From positions 832,001-896,000 of the forward strand of contig CH464491.1 of assembly GCA_000002445.1 (NCBI GenBank): DNA of 64,000 bases, read 5' to 3'. Positions 56,752 to 62,642 of this stretch are shown piece after piece (position 1 is the stretch's first letter; every line of letters begins with the position of its first letter). The notes under the pieces were generated by a model. That model was not told where the DNA came from. It made no database searches and saw only the letters and a list, made by a program, of their open reading frames with translations. This DNA is from Trypanosoma brucei. Its lineage: Eukaryota. The position numbers and the translations under genes are program-made.

Positions 56752-57997
56752 CCACTAGTCAACAACGTCCGCCGAGGAGAGAGGGAGATCGACAAAACGA
56801 TCGCAATAACCCCTTTAAATTTTTAGAGAATATCAGCCCCGAAGAGAGATCATCACATACGTACCGACACAGGTAACCACAGTTACTAAGGGAAAATTCT
56901 GCGAACACGTTACACAAAAAACTCAAAGTTGTGGGAAAGGTAAGTAGTAGCCTTCGTAACCGGAAAAAACAACGCAACAACAGCTGGGACGGAACGCCGT
57001 ACAGCATCATATGAAGAATTCAAACCGCGGGCACTGACAAGGCATCAGTGAAACGAAAACGAGGACGAAGCCCAAACTAAAAACTTACCTACGCCAACGC
57101 GGCTCCACGACACTTTTCATCACTTAAGAAAAGCGCAGTCGCCGTCTTCCGCACCACCATTGCTACCAAAACAAGGCCCGTAGAGACCAGTTGAGCTTGC
57201 GCAAACATGGTAAAAGCGGTGCCTCAGCATCGATTTTTAGACAGTCAACTGCACGCGCAACTGCAAACGGGTAGAAGGTATCCAGAATATCCGGGTTGAG
57301 AAAATATACCGACTTTGGAGTAATATTCACCTTCTTGATTAAAGGCATGCTTTGGAAGCTGCGTACAGCGTGCCAGATATATGGTAGATTACTACCCGGC
57401 CATTGACAACAAGTACACGGAATTAAGCAAGCGAAATGACTCAGCCAAAAAAGAAAAATGAATCACCTCCCTAACTTCAGTAATTCAAACGCTATTTCCC
57501 TTTTTAGCGACAATAGAACCTGTCTTTCAACTGGAACAACTTGATGTGCCAACCACGGCTTTCCTCGGAACTCAAAAATACAATACCCCCCTCCTACCCC
57601 CCCCCAAAAAAAAAAAGAGAGAGAGAAAAAGCTAATAAAGATAACGCAAAAGACGGCAAAGCCCCCCCCCACACACACACGTTTCTGGACACGTGCTGTG
57701 CGCACGCACCGTACTGTCCTTATTTTTATTTTACCGTCAGACGTGGCAATGTACTACCCAATAAAGTTGGAAACAGGGATGGTACGTCTTTCCATAAAGA
57801 AACCCAAGTAGTTACGGTTATGCGCGAAAGTTTTGGATCGACGGAGGTGGTTGCCTACATGTCCCCCGAAAGTTATGGTAAAGACCGAACCGTCAAACGT
57901 AACACGAACATATCACCGAAACAATATATGAGGTGGCCTCCACCCTGCCCTCCGGAACATGGAGTCGGGCGGTCTGCGTTTAAGTGTGAAGACCGCA

Positions 57998-58012
57998 CCC
58001 CCCCCCCCCCCC
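57998..58012. repeat. C15 homopolymer
   Basis: An uninterrupted run of C lies within the ORF-free block. The block contains more runs: G12 at 58142..58153, G11 at 61036..61046 and G10 at 61579..61588. Confidence 0.9.
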
Positions 58013-61000
58013 AACAACCCTGCCGCCGGATGCCGACCCCATCTCAAGCCCCTGGATCCAAGGACCGCGAACGAAGCAGCGAACCATCCTGAAGATCCCT
58101 TGGGGACCGGCCCCGCACCGTCTTCCCGACACAACCGGCTTGGGGGGGGGGGGTGAAAAGGCCGGAGAAAGTGACCACCAGCCAGCTACCTCCACAACGC
58201 CAGTGCAGGGACCCTCAAATAATAACAGACTCAGATGCACGCAGCAACGGTGCCTTACGGGCCCTCAGCGACTTTTGATCACTCCTCCCCTCCCCCGCCC
58301 TCTTCTTTAACGGCGGCCTCGCGTGGGCTCACCACAAACGGTGGAGCTCTCAAAAGCCACGGAGCCGAAAAAACGGAGTCTGCTTCGCTGCCCAACTGGT
58401 AAAAGACACCATCGATTGCCCTCCAAGCAAATACAAAGAAGACTACACAACCTCCAAAAGGGCGCGGAAACACTCAACACCCCACCTCCCTTTACAGGCC
58501 CGGGGCCTCGCAGCACAACTTTAACCATCAGCCCTTCCGCGAGTAGAAAGCACGCCCCTCGCTCCTTTTTTTTTTTTGACAGTACGGGTTTCAAAAAAAA
58601 CACGGAGCGAAACCCCACGCTCTAGAGAGTGTTGAAGCAACGTGCGACGCCCACCCACAACGACCCCCGCGACCAGTGCACTCAATGGCAACAACAACAA
58701 CAACCCTCCGATATGTTTCATCTATGGCCGTTACGACCGCAGCCAAACAGAAAACCGCTGGGAAGCAAAGTCGTGTGCTGGCCACAAAGAAGACAAATAC
58801 CACCGGCTCCTCGGCAAGTCTGGATATCTCAAACTCGGCGGCGAGGCCCCCCATGCTCTGTTAAGGAAGGAGAACCCAGCTGGCGGCAAGGCACCCGACC
58901 GGATTGGCCTGAATTGAAGAGGTCGCAGCGTCAATCCACGGCGGGGCGCGCGACAGATCTGTCAGTGGACAAGGCCATTCCATTTGGAGCCCTTTTGCCA
59001 TGCGGAGAAGCCTCAAAGCAACATCAACAACAGCAACCTAACGCCACAGGAAATTGGCATGACGATGCCGATGCTCCGAAAGAGGGTTTGGAGACCAACT
59101 AACTTGATAGCGGTGAATCCACCGAAGCGCCCGAGATAACCGGGGAGGTTCCGTTTACCCGGTTCCGGCATAGCAGTCCCCTACTGCGAGAAGATGATTG
59201 ATACCAGTGTCGTTTGAAACGGGAGCATCAAAACATTTCGGCTTTGCAATCGGTGCAACAGAAAAGAGGAAAAAAAGGCGAAACTCAGATAGCAGCCTGC
59301 AGTGACTCTCGGCAGTGCCCAGTACGTCACGCCCATCCACTTCAAATATCACCTATCGCTAAGAGTGGCGGGATACCGTCACCAAATGTTTCCATCACTC
59401 CTAAAATACTGTGTTGCGATTTCGAAGTGGGACAGCCAAGCAAGCGTTGAAGATATATCGATGGAAAAAAGAAAGGGGCGTCGGCGGTTAGGTGATGTCC
59501 GCTACCGCAGTGCCCACGGCATCCGAGGGGAAGCGCAGTTGCCACAACCACGGCGCACGACTCCGCATAGTTCAATCCGACCTCTGAACATTCCACTATG
59601 TGCCAAGGGCAAGTGGGGGTAAAAAGTATACCAAGGACGACAGAGTAACCTGGATATGCCTGAATCCCTTCCCTAAACGCGCAAACTGACTGTGCAGTCC
59701 TGAAAACAGTAACACCGCACACGCCACGCACGGAGGAACGCAACACCACCCCAGGTTGGTTGATCAAACAAACAGGAAAGCAACATTCCGGGTGTTCGAA
59801 AGGAGAGCGAGAGAGCGACCACCAACTGGCGCCAAGGCTGCCGGAGAACAACAAAATCTCTCCGGGTTGTTAAAGCAGTTGGGGTGGAAGCAATAGTGAG
59901 AGGCAATACCGGAAGTGCTAGGCCCTTAAAGAATCCGGTACTATCCGAACAACAGGTTGCAGGAAATAACGGAAATTGGTGCACGAATGTGGTTGGTGGA
60001 ATTGGCAACGTGGTCACGTGATAGGACTCGTTCGACACACAGAATAAACACGCGGCGAAGGAGCAAAAGGGATGCAGGCGATGGGGACGTTGGTGTCATC
60101 AAAGGTACTTCAAAGGGTCCTCCACTGCCCAACAAAACGTGTGGAATGAAGCGCTCTCACAAAATGCATGTGGCAGGAGAACTGACCTGAGGTAGAAAGG
60201 CAGTGCAGTGATCTAGGGGTGAAGCGTGAGGAGTCCTCCCCACCGTTACCACAATACCAAGCCCTAAAAGTGCTAGGTGAAGAATGTGCGGTGGGGGACG
60301 CCGCGAAACGCGGTTTACTTTTTCAAGCGTCCGGCACATTTTCTGTGCAAGCTGTTCGGACTAAAGGAGTTGGAACCAAACACGAAGGTGCCCATCCCTT
60401 TTCCATCGAATGGACGAACCCAAAGTGGAGGGGTGAGGGGAGCAAAAACCTCCATCGGCTAAAAGTGTCATGTCGGAGTCTGCGGCCGGGTTTACCGCCG
60501 CCGAATCACCCAGTGCTGTGATAAGCGCGATGGGAACGGGCAACAGCGTAACGCAGCGAGAGGGTTGGAAGCCAAAGAACCGGATTGATTTAAACCGGAT
60601 GATAAACCAGATCGCGGTTTTCGTTAACGAGAGTCGTGTTGGGCCACCCATGGTCCACAATATAAATGATCACTTGAGGAGGAGGAAAGAAGGCACAAAT
60701 GGGGCGCATTTTTCTAGGGTGTTGGGCTCTGGCGCAAAGGCACGCTGGTCAGATTTAATGGGTATCCCCGCATGTGTTTCGTTGGCAACACGCTATCGTG
60801 ATGTCCACACTTTCTAGTTGCTCTTTTTTTTCCTACAGTAGAGACTCCGCGCGGCAACTCTTTCCGCTCGGACGCCCGACACCCATATGCGGCACAAGGT
60901 ATTCCCACTCCGGGGAAGGTCGGAAAGGTACATGTATGCCCCTGAAGACAACAGCAGTCGAGCTAGGACACGAAAAACCGTGTGCAGGCACGGCCGGACC

Positions 61001-62606
61001 ACCATATTCAACCGCTTTGTGAAGGTTGATACTCAGGGGGGGGGGGTAGAATAGTTACTTGTTATTCCAGGAAGACTTGCATTTGGTAGCAGTACCGAAA
61101 AGGGGGTTTACTCCACCTGTATGGCATCCACATTTGTTTTTTCAACTCTCAAAAAATTCCGTTATCTTTCACTCATTCATTGTCCCCCATTCGCCTTCAC
61201 TGCATTGGGTAGTGGTACAGGAGGACGAAGCGGCCGTGGGGATTCTCCCCCGTCCTCCATTTGGGCAAGGTATTAAGCCTATGGGGAAACAGTGGTGCGC
61301 AGGGACTTAATGGAGGCCTCCCACCTCGTCCAGACACCTTCCCCCATGGTGAAACAAGCTAACGCCCACAAACATTATTGAGGCTTAGCCGCTTTCGTGC
61401 GTTATCTTGGGGCCTTTTGCGACGAGCAAGAACCGGGAAGCAGAGGAACCGTTGTTTTTTTTTTTTTTTTGTAGGAGAGGATGACATAAGCCTTCCCACC
61501 ACGGTCGACGCAGTCAATGAGTTCTCCGTGGTCGAGGTCCTGGATACGTTTGAGCGACAGAATAGGGAATGTTTCTAAGGGGGGGGGGAATATTAGAAAT
61601 CACACATAACCAAGTGCTTTATACCCCAACGACGTTCCTCTCCATACACCGAAGTGCAGGTTAGGGTACTCTTTTTTTAGAAAAGCAAAACAAAATCAAT
61701 GCAATCATACGATATTACATAAAGGAGTAACAGCATATTTCCTGCATGTTCACCCATGCTAATCCGCAAATATATGCTTTATTTCCGTCACACTGAAGCG
61801 CCATGTAGACGCGTATTAACGGCAAAAGCACCAGCACCAACGCTTTACATACCGTTTCTTGAGTCCCGGCCCCAATAGCGTGTGGTAAAGTAACATAAAT
61901 GTCGACACAAGGCTATGAGGATGTTCCACTTTCACTTGGTAATGCGGGATGGGTCGGCTGCGGACGAAAAAGGAACACGGGAGTAATTCGGGCGATGTGG
62001 AGGTGCGAACGAATAAAAACGCACAAACACAAAGCGCAGAAATATTTTCAGGTTCAAGAGCAAAATGGAGTAAAACTCGATTCCCTGAGAGAAAAATAAA
62101 AAGAAAATGTGTACAAAACAATGTGGAGTAGTAAAAGTTGCTGCTACGTCGTTCACGCCCCTTATTGACGTCGCTCAGAACCGTCCTGCTCCCACCAATA
62201 AAGATACGAAACCCACCTTTCAGTAATTCTCCCAGTGAACCCAACGCCTGCCCCACGCAACCCTCGTTAAGCAAAAAAAAAAAACGATTATTACTATTCT
62301 TCTTTCTTGTCACTGTTCCTGACACACACACACACAAAAAAAGCAGAATTGAGCTTTAGAAAGCGACGTAGACACCGGCGGCCATCGTCCGGCATCCACT
62401 TGACATATCATCCTCGCACCGAATGCTCGTTTTCGCCCAAAGGACCCAACGAGAACAGCGAGTGACACTAGAATCGGGACAACACGGATGGACATCTTCC
62501 CCGCATCCACGAACCAAAAAAGGTTAATAAAAAAGGGAAAGGTCCCTATGAGAAGGGATATGTGTCACTTTATGCTCATATGTGTCAACACCGACTTATG
62601 CACATA

Positions 62607-62626
62607 TTATATATATATATATATAT
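62607..62626. repeat. (TA)n microsatellite
   Basis: ttatatatatatatatatatat sits just downstream of the metacaspase stop. Confidence 0.85.
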
Positions 62627-62642
62627 TTCATTGCTAAAGCTC

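What the first reader, a model, noticed from the sequence alone, without database searches (positions are those of the whole stretch)
56760..62640. 5.8 kb gene-free, homopolymer-rich block inside a unidirectional gene cluster
Elsewhere in the window genes are spaced 0.3-1.7 kb apart. Here ~5.8 kb has only short, mutually overlapping ORFs with no recognisable translation. The block also carries C15, G12, G11 and G10 runs plus (GA)n and (CA)n tracts, none of which occur at this length elsewhere in the window.

In trypanosomatids, blocks like this usually fall into one of three classes:
- decayed ingi/L1Tc-type retroposons (DIREs)
- small-RNA loci, meaning snoRNA clusters or other Pol III or Pol II small RNAs
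- internal head-to-tail termination and re-initiation sites of Pol II units, which are marked by G-run or GT-rich tracts and by variant histones and base J

On the sense (minus) strand the tract at ~57595-57680 reads (TG)5 G10 ... (TC)5 T11 G9. That is the kind of G/GT-rich sequence associated with such sites. Which of the three this is cannot be decided from the sequence alone.
Basis: partly seen in the sequence, partly recalled or inferred. Interest (0 to 1): 0.65.

Follow-up and report, generated by a model that had tools for sequence, protein, structure and literature searches.

The report
Non-coding spacer near a transcription start
The 5.9 kb gene-free block is real, but it is not a recognisable retroposon or small-RNA locus: it is an ordinary non-coding spacer after the first gene of a Trypanosoma brucei transcription unit, made of untranslated regions around a GC-rich, G-run-bearing core that looks like transcription-start-region DNA.

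Summary
The window is T. brucei TREU927 chromosome 11 (window coordinate = Tb927_11_01_v4 coordinate minus 832,000). The block (56752-62642) lies between MCA1 (Tb927.11.3220) and a DOT1-domain gene (Tb927.11.3200).

It is confirmed as non-coding and unusually long: 5,891 bp against a median spacer of 643 bp. G/C runs are moderately enriched (P about 0.01-0.03). The claim that such runs occur nowhere else in the window is wrong.

Retroposon tests were all negative: Pfam on six frames, L1Tco tblastx, 120 L1Tc-clade proteins, a Pr77 profile and SIDER sequences. Rfam and tRNA scans were also negative.

Published maps explain the left 0.85 kb. It holds two splice-acceptor sites of the DOT1-like gene and the transcript Tb11.NT.34.

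Two papers place MCA1 as the first gene of its transcription unit, so the block is not deep inside a cluster.

The 3.6 kb core has 53.7% GC, a GC-skew sign change and outward-facing G runs. It resembles the centre of the divergent strand-switch region upstream of MCA1 and carries the 10-mers typical of T. brucei start regions.

Best reading (about 0.5): start-region-type DNA plus UTRs. ChIP data are needed to settle it. The finding is ordinary.

The parts
55846..56751 (-). Downstream flanking gene: DOT1-domain protein Tb927.11.3200 (= Tb11.02.0710, EAN79290, Q386J1), 301 aa.
   Evidence: Exact match. CDS coordinates 887846-888751 in Tb927_11_01_v4 fix the offset at 832,000.
56752..56898 (-). 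Proximal 5' UTR of the DOT1-like mRNA. The splice-acceptor AG is at 56900/56899 and the first transcribed base is 56898.
   Evidence: Kolev 2010 Table S3 gives the transcript as 888898->887018, flagged 'alt 5UTR'. On the minus strand, the AG sits immediately before 56898.
56834..57597 (-). Published transcript Tb11.NT.34 (763 nt, 1.34 RNA per cell in procyclics). It is the distal alternative 5' UTR / UTR-internal non-coding RNA of the DOT1-like gene.
   Evidence: Kolev 2010 Table S7 lists 889597->888834 on the minus strand. The paper's text on 5'UTR-internal transcripts is.
57597..57626 (-). On the sense strand: (TC)5 T11 G9. This is the polypyrimidine tract directly upstream of the distal splice acceptor. 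It also matches start-region-enriched 10-mers such as TTTTTTTTGG and TTTGGGGGGG.
57662..57681 (-). On the sense strand: C(GT)5 G9. It holds seven overlapping matches to the G-rich start-region 10-mers of Wedel 2017, including GTGTGTGTGG, TGTGTGTGGG and GTGTGTGGGG.
57544..58092 (+). Annotated ORF Tb927.11.3210 (= Tb11.02.0720, EAN79291), 182 aa, antisense to the unit. It is very probably spurious.
   Evidence: It is a singleton cluster. It appears in Kolev Table S2 among ORFs with no detectable transcript. It runs across the C9/A11/(GA)5/C9/(CA)5/C15 low-complexity tracts. It is not annotated in T. b. gambiense.
57990..61590 (.). GC-rich core of 3.6 kb (53.7% GC). The sense strand is G-rich in the DOT1-proximal part (57.9-58.8 kb) and the opposite strand is G-rich at 59.4-60.6 kb, so GC skew changes sign at about 59.0-59.4 kb.
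   Evidence: The same signature is seen at the centre of the divergent strand-switch region upstream of MCA1. There is no coding signal, no Pfam family and no homologue for the best ORF.
57998..58012 (-). G15 on the sense strand, pointing towards the DOT1-like gene. It is only G5 in T. b. gambiense.
58142..58153 (+). G12 on the antisense (+) strand, 130 bp from the G15 and facing the other way. It is G13 in T. b. gambiense.
61036..61588 (+). G11 (61036-61046), T16 (61455-61470) and G10 (61579-61588), all on the + strand at the MCA1-proximal edge of the core.
61591..62642 (-). Lower-GC region just downstream of MCA1, presumed to be the proximal 3' UTR. On the sense strand it carries T7(TG)7 (62322-62343) and T12 (62273-62284).
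   Evidence: The poly(A) site of MCA1 could not be retrieved.
62643..63761 (-). Upstream flanking gene: metacaspase MCA1 (Tb927.11.3220 = Tb11.02.0730, EAN79292), 372 aa. It is the first annotated gene of the transcription unit.
   Evidence: Exact match. The name is given. Kolev Table S14 lists the unit 'Tb11.02.0730 -> Tb11.22.0001, minus, Divergent'. Tiengwe 2012 labels it 'start of DGC'.

Best explanation
The block is a transcribed, non-coding spacer between the first gene (MCA1) and the second gene (DOT1-like) of a Pol II polycistronic unit. That unit starts at a divergent strand-switch region about 2.6-4.9 kb beyond the right end of the window.

It has three parts.
1. About 1 kb of ordinary, lower-GC DNA lies downstream of MCA1 and is presumed to be its 3' UTR.
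2. A 3.6 kb GC-rich core carries G and T homopolymers facing outwards on both strands, with a GC-skew sign change in the middle. This is the sequence signature of T. brucei dispersed, GT-rich, intrinsically bidirectional Pol II start regions.
3. About 0.85 kb is the leader of the DOT1-like gene. It holds a polypyrimidine tract, two splice-acceptor sites and the short non-coding RNA Tb11.NT.34.

Proposed mechanism (inferred, not shown): the core belongs to the broad H2A.Z-marked start domain of this unit, or forms a second initiation zone within it. Its homopolymers disfavour nucleosomes, and its sense-strand G/GT tracts favour initiation towards the DOT1-like gene and the genes downstream.

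Proposed history (inferred): MCA1, which appears to be a Trypanozoon-specific paralogue, came to lie inside what was once the strand-switch region in front of the DOT1-like gene. The block is the DOT1-proximal remainder of that region.

What is shown: the anatomy, the absence of coding or retroelement content, the published RNA ends, and the position of MCA1 at the start of the unit.
For: **Position**
- MCA1 is the first gene of the unit in Kolev 2010 Table S14 and is labelled 'start of DGC' in Tiengwe 2012.
- Novel transcripts NT.35/NT.36 (minus strand) and NT.37/NT.38 (plus strand) put the switch point at 898.6-900.9 kb.
- Start regions are described as 5-10 kb wide.

**Sequence**
- In Wedel 2017 Dataset EV1 the 10-mer most enriched on the coding strand at the 5' end of start regions is G10 (132 against 17), followed by (GT)nGn types.
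- For the G-rich subset of those 10-mers, 19 of 44 sense-strand hits and 7 of 12 antisense hits in the 64 kb window fall in the block.
- The densest cluster (15 hits) is at 57608-58012, just upstream of the distal splice acceptor of the DOT1-like gene. Clusters outside the gap never exceed 3 hits.
- Core GC is 53.7%, against 37-54% in the other 26 spacers.
- GC skew changes sign inside the core.
- The confirmed divergent switch region upstream of MCA1 has the same GC-rich (0.52-0.58) centre with a skew flip. That centre is bounded by the first mapped transcripts.

**Synteny**
- In Leishmania infantum the DOT1-like orthologue is the first gene at a divergent switch region.
- No metacaspase lies within 10 kb upstream of the DOT1-like gene in T. 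congolense, T. theileri, T. melophagium or L. infantum.
- The best non-Trypanozoon matches to MCA1 are 45-49% identical, no better than its paralogue MCA2 at 47%.

**Published RNA ends** explain 56752-57597.
Against: - No histone-variant, Pol II or 5'-triphosphate data could be examined for this locus.
- Kolev's Table S14 is stated to cover all sites marked by modified or variant histones. It lists no 'Internal' start between MCA1 and the DOT1-like gene.
- The far edge of the block is about 10 kb from the switch point, at the limit of a typical start-region width.
- When all of Wedel's 10-mers are counted, the T-rich ones make other spacers score as high (11-15 per kb). Only the G-rich subset is distinctive.
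- G-run orientation is not cleanly partitioned even in the true switch region.
- The most striking run (G15 on the sense strand) is G5 in T. b. gambiense, so its length is not constrained.
- No plus-strand transcript is reported in the block, and Tb11.02.0720 is unexpressed.
- The comparison with a 'typical' start region rests on one local example.
Confidence: 0.5

Rival explanations
1. The block is a plain long 3' UTR. MCA1 mRNA runs from its stop codon to a poly(A) site just upstream of the polypyrimidine tract at 57606-57626, giving a 3' UTR of about 4.9 kb. The block acts only post-transcriptionally, in the developmental regulation of MCA1, and its G runs are neutral microsatellites.
For: - Only one extra transcript (Tb11.NT.34) is reported in the block. 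Polyadenylation in trypanosomes is coupled to the next downstream splice acceptor (established knowledge), so some RNA must end near 57.7-57.8 kb.
- MCA1 is developmentally regulated.
- No internal start is listed.
- Homopolymer lengths vary freely between subspecies.
Against: - The core's GC content (53.7%) is above that of coding DNA (51.3%) and above nearly all other spacers in the window. That is atypical for the AT/U-rich UTR regions seen elsewhere in the window.
- The skew reversal and the antisense-strand G runs have no explanation under this reading.
- The MCA1 poly(A) site could not be retrieved, so the length is untested.
- This rival is compatible with the DNA also lying in a start domain.
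Confidence: 0.25
2. The core is the remnant of a mobile element (a DIRE or similar) or of a gene, inserted at a synteny breakpoint and decayed beyond recognition. Its orientation was possibly antisense to the unit.
For: - The block sits at a rearrangement boundary between Trypanosoma and Leishmania.
- Contigs of T. grayi, T. rangeli and T. cruzi Sylvio end just upstream of the DOT1-like gene, and the T. theileri scaffold is full of N gaps there.
- T. melophagium has an L1Tc RNase H/RT remnant about 9 kb upstream of its DOT1-like gene (E = 9e-7).
- The core has coding-like GC content and opposite skew.
- Weak coding-like patches occur at 58.9-59.1 kb and 60.4-60.7 kb on the + strand.
Against: - Pfam on all six frames gives 0 families at E up to 1.
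- tblastx with 3.6 kb of L1Tco gives nothing better than E = 2.2 in the gap.
- tblastn with 120 RT/L1Tc-clade proteins gives a best E of about 0.6 in the gap, no better than inside genes.
- A Pr77 profile scores E of at least 15 in the gap, while its positive control scores 2.6e-12.
- TbSIDER2 and TcoSIDER1 find nothing.
- There are no flanking target-site duplications or terminal repeats.
- The best ORF has 0 homologues among 1.84 billion representative proteins.
- tblastx against the orthologous regions of five species finds nothing.
- ingi itself was not available as a query.
Confidence: 0.12
3. The block is a true head-to-tail boundary. Transcription of a short MCA1 unit terminates in the block, marked by H3.V, H4.V and base J, and a new unit re-initiates for the DOT1-like gene.
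For: - G runs and GT tracts are oriented towards the DOT1-like gene.
- The DOT1-like gene is the first gene of a unit in Leishmania.
- Plus-strand G runs at 61.0-61.6 kb could drive antisense transcription converging on MCA1.
Against: - Two independent published maps treat MCA1 and the DOT1-like gene as one unit and list no internal site.
- There is no tRNA or other Pol III gene, which often accompanies such boundaries.
- No termination mark could be examined.
Confidence: 0.1
4. The block hosts a snoRNA cluster or another small structured RNA.
For: Only a sub-threshold C/D-box-like match at 56831-56859 on the minus strand (sR23, 15.9 bits against a gathering score of 45, E = 1.8).
Against: - No Rfam family reaches its gathering score in the whole window.
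- Only two chance-level matches appear at E up to 10 in the block.
- There are no tRNAs and no tandemly repeated units of the kind that make up trypanosome snoRNA clusters.
- The C and D boxes of the one match are only 12 nt apart.
Confidence: 0.03

Closest known systems
T. brucei Pol II transcription start regions: dispersed, GT-rich, bidirectional promoters marked by H2A.Z/H2B.V/H4K10ac (Siegel 2009; Kolev 2010; Wedel 2017, PMC5579346)
   Same: - G10 or longer runs and (GT)nGn tracts on the strand facing the downstream genes.
- Homopolymeric G and T stretches.
- Non-coding DNA several kb long.
- Position within about 4-10 kb of a mapped divergent switch point.
- Low-abundance non-coding spliced transcripts at its edge.
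- A GC-rich centre with a skew flip, like the neighbouring confirmed switch region.
   Different: - It is separated from the switch point by a protein-coding gene (MCA1).
- It is not listed as a separate internal start in the published unit table.
- Its chromatin marks were not examined.
- One of its main G runs is not conserved in T. b. gambiense.
DIRE: degenerate ingi/L1Tc-related elements of trypanosomatids
   Same: A kb-scale, frameshift-ridden, GC-rich non-coding block at a synteny breakpoint. A/T homopolymers could pass for decayed poly(A) tails.
   Different: No residual endonuclease, RT or RNase H similarity, no Pr77 hallmark and no target-site duplication.
Long UTRs with UTR-internal transcripts in T. 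brucei (Kolev 2010, Table S3/S7)
   Same: The left 0.85 kb is exactly such a case. The DOT1-like gene has two acceptor sites, and Tb11.NT.34 is the 5'UTR-internal RNA.
   Different: This accounts for only about 15% of the block. The GC-rich core has no mapped RNA ends in the tables that could be read.
Divergent strand-switch region in front of the DOT1-like orthologue in Leishmania infantum (L005/L006)
   Same: The same gene, DOT1-like followed by the ~1,630-1,690 aa gene, begins a transcription unit there. A C10/G10 run lies in that switch region.
   Different: The Leishmania region is only 1.15 kb, and the neighbour across it is the Derlin gene. This implies an inversion of the DOT1-like block relative to Trypanosoma. 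There is no sequence similarity to the T. brucei block.

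Membership tests
DIRE / ingi-L1Tc clade retroposon | Detectable similarity to the AP-endonuclease, reverse transcriptase or RNase H coding sequence of ingi/L1Tc. 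| tested here: not met
   Pfam on six frames gave 0 families at E up to 1. tblastx with L1Tco gave a best E of 2.2 in the gap. tblastn with 120 RT/L1Tc/L1Tco proteins gave a best E of about 0.6 in the gap. The same query set did detect a remnant in T. melophagium (E = 9e-7). The ingi ORF itself was not available.
DIRE / ingi-L1Tc clade retroposon | Pr77 (77-79 nt) hallmark at the 5' end. | tested here: not met
   An nhmmer profile built from 12 Pr77 sequences gave a best E of 15 in the gap and 1.9 elsewhere in the window. The L1Tco control scored 2.6e-12.
DIRE / ingi-L1Tc clade retroposon | 3' A-rich tail plus a flanking target-site duplication. | tested here: not met
   A/T runs exist (T12, T16, A11). 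The only flanking direct repeat is a 20 nt A-rich pair at 80% identity (56912 / 62332), which is consistent with chance.
DIRE / ingi-L1Tc clade retroposon | Multiple dispersed copies in the genome. | not testable with these tools
   No searchable T. brucei genome was available. There are no internal or local repeats.
SIDER / TSIDER short retroposons | Similarity to the TbSIDER2 or TcoSIDER1 consensus. | tested here: not met
   blastn (word size 7) and nhmmer found nothing in the gap.
snoRNA cluster / known small RNA | A match to a curated covariance model, or tandemly repeated gene units. | tested here: not met
   Rfam at gathering score gave 0 hits. At E up to 10 there were two chance-level hits. 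No tRNAs and no tandem units.
Pol II transcription start region (TSR) | G runs and GT-rich 10-mers enriched on the strand of the downstream genes, strongest at the 5' edge. | tested here: met
   The 10-mer list is from Wedel Dataset EV1. There are 15 G-rich hits on the sense strand at 57608-58012, against a maximum cluster of 3 outside the gap. Caveat: the T-rich members of the list are common in all spacers.
Pol II transcription start region (TSR) | Location at the beginning of a polycistronic unit. | tested here: inconclusive
   The unit starts one gene upstream, and no separate internal start is listed. The block lies 4-10 kb from the switch point. The DOT1-like gene is the first gene of a unit in Leishmania.
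Pol II transcription start region (TSR) | H2A.Z/H2B.V nucleosomes, H4K10ac, Pol II/SPARC peaks and 5'-triphosphate RNAs on both strands. | not testable with these tools
   No track data were available. The SPARC paper's supplements do not mention the three local gene IDs.
Transcription termination region (head-to-tail boundary) | H3.V, H4.V and base J enrichment, with loss of nascent transcription. | not testable with these tools
   Indirect evidence only: the published unit table has no boundary between MCA1 and the DOT1-like gene.
Long 3' UTR of MCA1 | A poly(A) site of MCA1 mRNA mapped at the far end of the block, with continuous coverage. | not testable with these tools
   Kolev's poly(A) tables were truncated in the held copy, and MCA1 is absent from the parts that were held. 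The supplement of Siegel 2010 is not held.

The most novel reading that the evidence does not exclude
The GC-rich core is a second, still active or only recently silenced, bidirectional Pol II promoter. It was left behind when the Trypanozoon-specific pseudopeptidase gene MCA1 was inserted into the ancestral strand-switch region in front of the DOT1-like gene. MCA1 would then be a nearly monocistronic unit bracketed by two start regions. Antisense initiation from the plus-strand G runs at 61.0-61.6 kb would converge on MCA1's 3' end. That would be a rare setting in which transcription, not only mRNA stability, could tune a single developmentally regulated trypanosome gene.
Probability: 0.15. 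Interest if true: 0.5.

Novelty: new member of a known kind. Interest (0 to 1): 0.22.

Why it matters
It matters little. The result removes a candidate retroposon or small-RNA locus. It shows that a long, odd-looking gap in the T. brucei core genome is explained by known features: UTRs, a published UTR-internal transcript, a spurious annotated ORF, and G-run/GT-rich DNA of the kind found at Pol II start regions.

Two side points have modest value.
- The block marks a rearrangement boundary between Trypanosoma and Leishmania, and the same gene begins a transcription unit in Leishmania.
- MCA1 appears to be a lineage-specific gene sitting inside start-region DNA. If the core proved to be an independent bidirectional promoter, the locus would be a convenient natural test case for how start regions are delimited.

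Tried and rejected
**Retroelement and protein searches**
- My first impression of a Pr77-like sequence at 58017-58090 (CCCTGCCGCC...CCTGGATCCAAGGACC) was not supported by the Pr77 profile.
- Pfam on six-frame translations with stops masked found nothing.
- L1Tco tblastx/blastn, 120 RT-family proteins and the SIDER consensus sequences found nothing.
The single best ORF (60470-60814 on the + strand) gave 0 hits.
- Exact look-ups of eight other ATG-initiated ORFs in the gap found them absent from the protein collection.

**RNA and repeat searches**
- Rfam at gathering score and at E up to 10, and ARAGORN, found nothing usable.
- Searches for repeats, inverted repeats, tandem repeats and G-quadruplex motifs found only homopolymers.

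**Comparisons with other genomes**
- blastn and tblastx of the gap against the orthologous regions of T. congolense, T. theileri, T. grayi, T. melophagium, T. rangeli and L. infantum showed no similarity outside the DOT1-like gene.
- Divergence between T. b. brucei and T. b. gambiense is 0.85% in the gap, against 0.5-1.4% in other spacers. The two are too close to show constraint.
- The T. equiperdum contig simply ends at 59961 and is collinear up to that point.

**Literature mining for start or termination calls at this locus**
- The supplements of Staneva 2021 and 2022 hold no coordinates or relevant IDs.
- Siegel 2009 is not held, and the supplement of Siegel 2010 is not held.
- The main text of Kim 2021 has nothing on chromosome 11.

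**Other**
- RPL44 and TCP1, the genes across the T. brucei switch region, are not within 10 kb of the DOT1-like gene in the other species.

Full report
**Identity of the locus**

Exact protein look-ups place the window on chromosome 11 of Trypanosoma brucei brucei TREU927. The matches are NOG1, a DYRK kinase, Derlin and a DOT1-domain protein. Coordinates in Kolev et al. 2010 (Tb11.02.0710 CDS at 887846-888751; Tb11.02.0720 at 889544-890092) match window positions 55846-56751 and 57544-58092. So window coordinate = Tb927_11_01_v4 coordinate minus 832,000.

All genes in the window are on the minus strand. The block lies between metacaspase MCA1 (Tb927.11.3220 = Tb11.02.0730; 62643-63761) and the DOT1-domain gene Tb927.11.3200 (55846-56751).

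**The observation**

The spacer is 56752-62642, 5,891 bp. The median of the other 26 spacers is 643 bp and the maximum is 2,154 bp.

A codon-usage log-likelihood scan trained on the window's genes scores 15-28 per 100 codons in the flanking genes. No frame in the gap exceeds about 13.

G/C runs of at least 9 nt are enriched in the block: 6 of 10 runs in 22.7% of the non-coding DNA (P = 0.012).

Several details are wrong:
- G11, C10 and (CA)7 also occur elsewhere in the window.
- The spacing range given for the other genes is too narrow.
- One ORF is annotated in the block: Tb927.11.3210, at 57544-58092 on the + strand. It is a singleton ORF running through the low-complexity tracts. It is absent from the T. 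b. gambiense annotation and is listed among ORFs with no detectable transcript.

The same roughly 6 kb gap is collinear and 98.5% identical in T. b. gambiense. Homopolymer lengths drift between the two subspecies: C15 is only C5 in gambiense.

**Test of the retroposon idea**

All tests were negative.
- Six-frame translations with stops masked hit no Pfam family at E up to 1.
- 3.6 kb of the T. congolense L1Tco element, copied from the supplement of PMC4035085, gives no tblastx or blastn signal.
- 120 L1Tco, L1Tc and other RT proteins recovered with it give nothing better than E of about 0.6 in the gap, no better than inside ordinary genes. The same set detects an L1Tc remnant in T. melophagium, so the test has power.
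- A Pr77 profile built from 12 published hallmarks scores 2.6e-12 on its control and E of at least 15 in the gap.
- SIDER consensus sequences find nothing.
- There are no terminal repeats or target-site duplications.
- The most coding-like ORF has no homologue among 1.84 billion representative proteins.

**Test of the small-RNA idea**

No Rfam family reaches its gathering score in the window. At E up to 10 only two chance-level matches appear in the block. There are no tRNAs and no tandem units.

**What published transcript maps explain**

The DOT1-like mRNA starts at 56898, and I verified the AG acceptor at 56900/56899 in the sequence. The gene is flagged as having an alternative 5' UTR.

The novel transcript Tb11.NT.34 runs from 57597 to 56834 on the minus strand, at 1.34 copies per cell. 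Its 5' end abuts the (TC)5T11G9 tract.

The MCA1 poly(A) site could not be retrieved, because the held tables are truncated.

**Position in the transcription unit**

Kolev's Table S14 lists a minus-strand unit running from Tb11.02.0730 to Tb11.22.0001, of 'Divergent' type. Tiengwe et al. 2012 independently label MCA1 'start of DGC'.

Novel transcripts NT.35/NT.36 (minus strand) and NT.37/NT.38 (plus strand) put the switch point at 898.6-900.9 kb. That is 2.6-4.9 kb beyond the right end of the window.

No internal start is listed between MCA1 and the DOT1-like gene, although the table is said to cover all sites marked by variant histones. The block therefore follows the first gene of the unit, 4-10 kb from the switch point. 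Start regions are described as 5-10 kb wide.

**Sequence character of the core**

Positions 57,990-61,590 have 53.7% GC. That is above coding DNA (51.3%) and above almost all other spacers. GC skew is negative on the + strand at 57.9-58.8 kb and positive at 59.4-60.6 kb.

In the T. b. gambiense locus that includes the whole divergent switch region, the centre of that region has the same properties. It has 0.52-0.58 GC and a skew flip, and it is bounded by the first mapped transcripts.

Wedel et al. 2017 list the 10-mers enriched on the coding strand of 199 start regions. G10 is by far the strongest at the 5' edge (132 against 17), followed by (GT)nGn types. The authors note long G and T homopolymers that exclude nucleosomes.
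- Counting all of their 10-mers, the block is not exceptional, because the T-rich ones occur in every spacer.
- Counting the G-rich subset, 19 of 44 sense-strand hits and 7 of 12 antisense-strand hits in the window fall in the block. Fifteen of them lie within 57608-58012, just upstream of the distal acceptor.
- The runs face outwards. On the minus strand, G15/G9/G9 lie at the DOT1-proximal edge. On the plus strand, G12, G11 and G10 lie from 58142 rightwards.

**Synteny**

In Leishmania infantum the DOT1-like gene is the first gene at a 1.15 kb divergent switch region, opposite Derlin. This implies an inversion whose breakpoint is the upstream side of the DOT1-like gene.

In T. congolense about 10 kb of GC-rich, RT-free non-coding DNA precedes the gene.

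In T. grayi, T. rangeli and T. cruzi Sylvio the contigs end just upstream of the gene. In T. theileri the scaffold is full of N gaps there.

No metacaspase lies within 10 kb upstream in any of these species. The best non-Trypanozoon matches to MCA1 are 45-49% identical, the same as its paralogue MCA2. MCA1 therefore looks like a lineage-specific paralogue.

**Verdict**

The block is real and statistically unusual for this window, but it is made of ordinary parts.
- The retroposon and small-RNA readings are disfavoured by direct tests.
- The reading that fits best (confidence about 0.5) is start-region-type DNA plus UTRs. It would be either the distal part of the broad start domain of the unit or a relic or secondary initiation zone. 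It may have been left when MCA1 came to lie in front of the DOT1-like gene.
- A plain long MCA1 3' UTR (0.25) cannot be excluded and is partly compatible with this reading.
- A remnant decayed beyond recognition (0.12) also cannot be excluded and is partly compatible with it.
- Whether Pol II initiates or terminates here can only be decided with the public ChIP-seq, 5'-triphosphate RNA and poly(A)-site data, which these tools could not reach.

Noticed in passing
window 62643-63761 (-): MCA1 carries HYSGYG and DCSHAG where active metacaspases have HYSGHG and DCCHSG. The catalytic His is Tyr and the catalytic Cys is Ser, so it is a pseudopeptidase. This is read directly from the translation; the canonical motifs are from my own knowledge. 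Its best matches outside the T. brucei group are only 45-49% identical, the same as its paralogue MCA2.
   Followed up: partly
window 57544-58092 (+): The GenBank/TriTrypDB gene Tb927.11.3210 (Tb11.02.0720, EAN79291) is an antisense ORF translated through C9/A11/(GA)5/C9/(CA)5/C15 tracts. It is a singleton, is not annotated in T. b. gambiense and has no detectable transcript. It should probably be retired.
   Followed up: yes
L005/L006 8200-16223 versus window 47969-56751: Relative to Trypanosoma, Leishmania infantum has the DOT1-like gene plus the ~1,630 aa gene inverted. As a result the DOT1-like gene and Derlin face away from each other across a 1.15 kb divergent switch region. In trypanosomes the order is DOT1-like, ~1,650-1,690 aa gene, ~190-210 aa gene, then Derlin, all on one strand.
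   Followed up: partly
L007 47-848: T. melophagium has an L1Tc-type RNase H/RT remnant (E = 9e-7) about 9 kb upstream of its DOT1-like gene. Between them lies a 339 aa coiled-coil/surface-protein-like gene with no Pfam domain.
   Followed up: no
window 57998-58012, 57662-57670, 61455-61470, 61579-61588: Homopolymer lengths differ between TREU927 and T. b. gambiense DAL972: C15 against C5, C9 against C10AC4, T16 against T14, G10 against G8. These are slippage-prone tracts, or possibly assembly uncertainty.
   Followed up: yes
window 56831-56859 (-): A C-box (UGAUGA) and a D-box (CUGA) lie 12 nt apart in the DOT1-like 5' UTR and give a sub-threshold Rfam match to archaeal sR23 (15.9 bits, E = 1.8). 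The spacing is too short for a C/D snoRNA, so this is most likely chance.
   Followed up: partly
window 63905-64000 (-): The right end of the window overlaps the 3' end of the published non-coding transcript Tb11.NT.35 (897449->895905), which lies between the divergent switch point and MCA1.
   Followed up: no
L002 1500-8500: T. congolense IL3000 has about 7 kb of 50-58% GC sequence without real ORFs or RT similarity upstream of its (partial) DOT1-like gene. This parallels the T. brucei core, but there is no alignable similarity between the two.
   Followed up: partly
window 21195-21205 and 21024-21032: The only other spacer in the window with a G11 (+ strand) and a C9 is the 1.7 kb spacer 20042-21771, which also has a (CA)7 at 20542-20555. 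It was not examined further.
   Followed up: no
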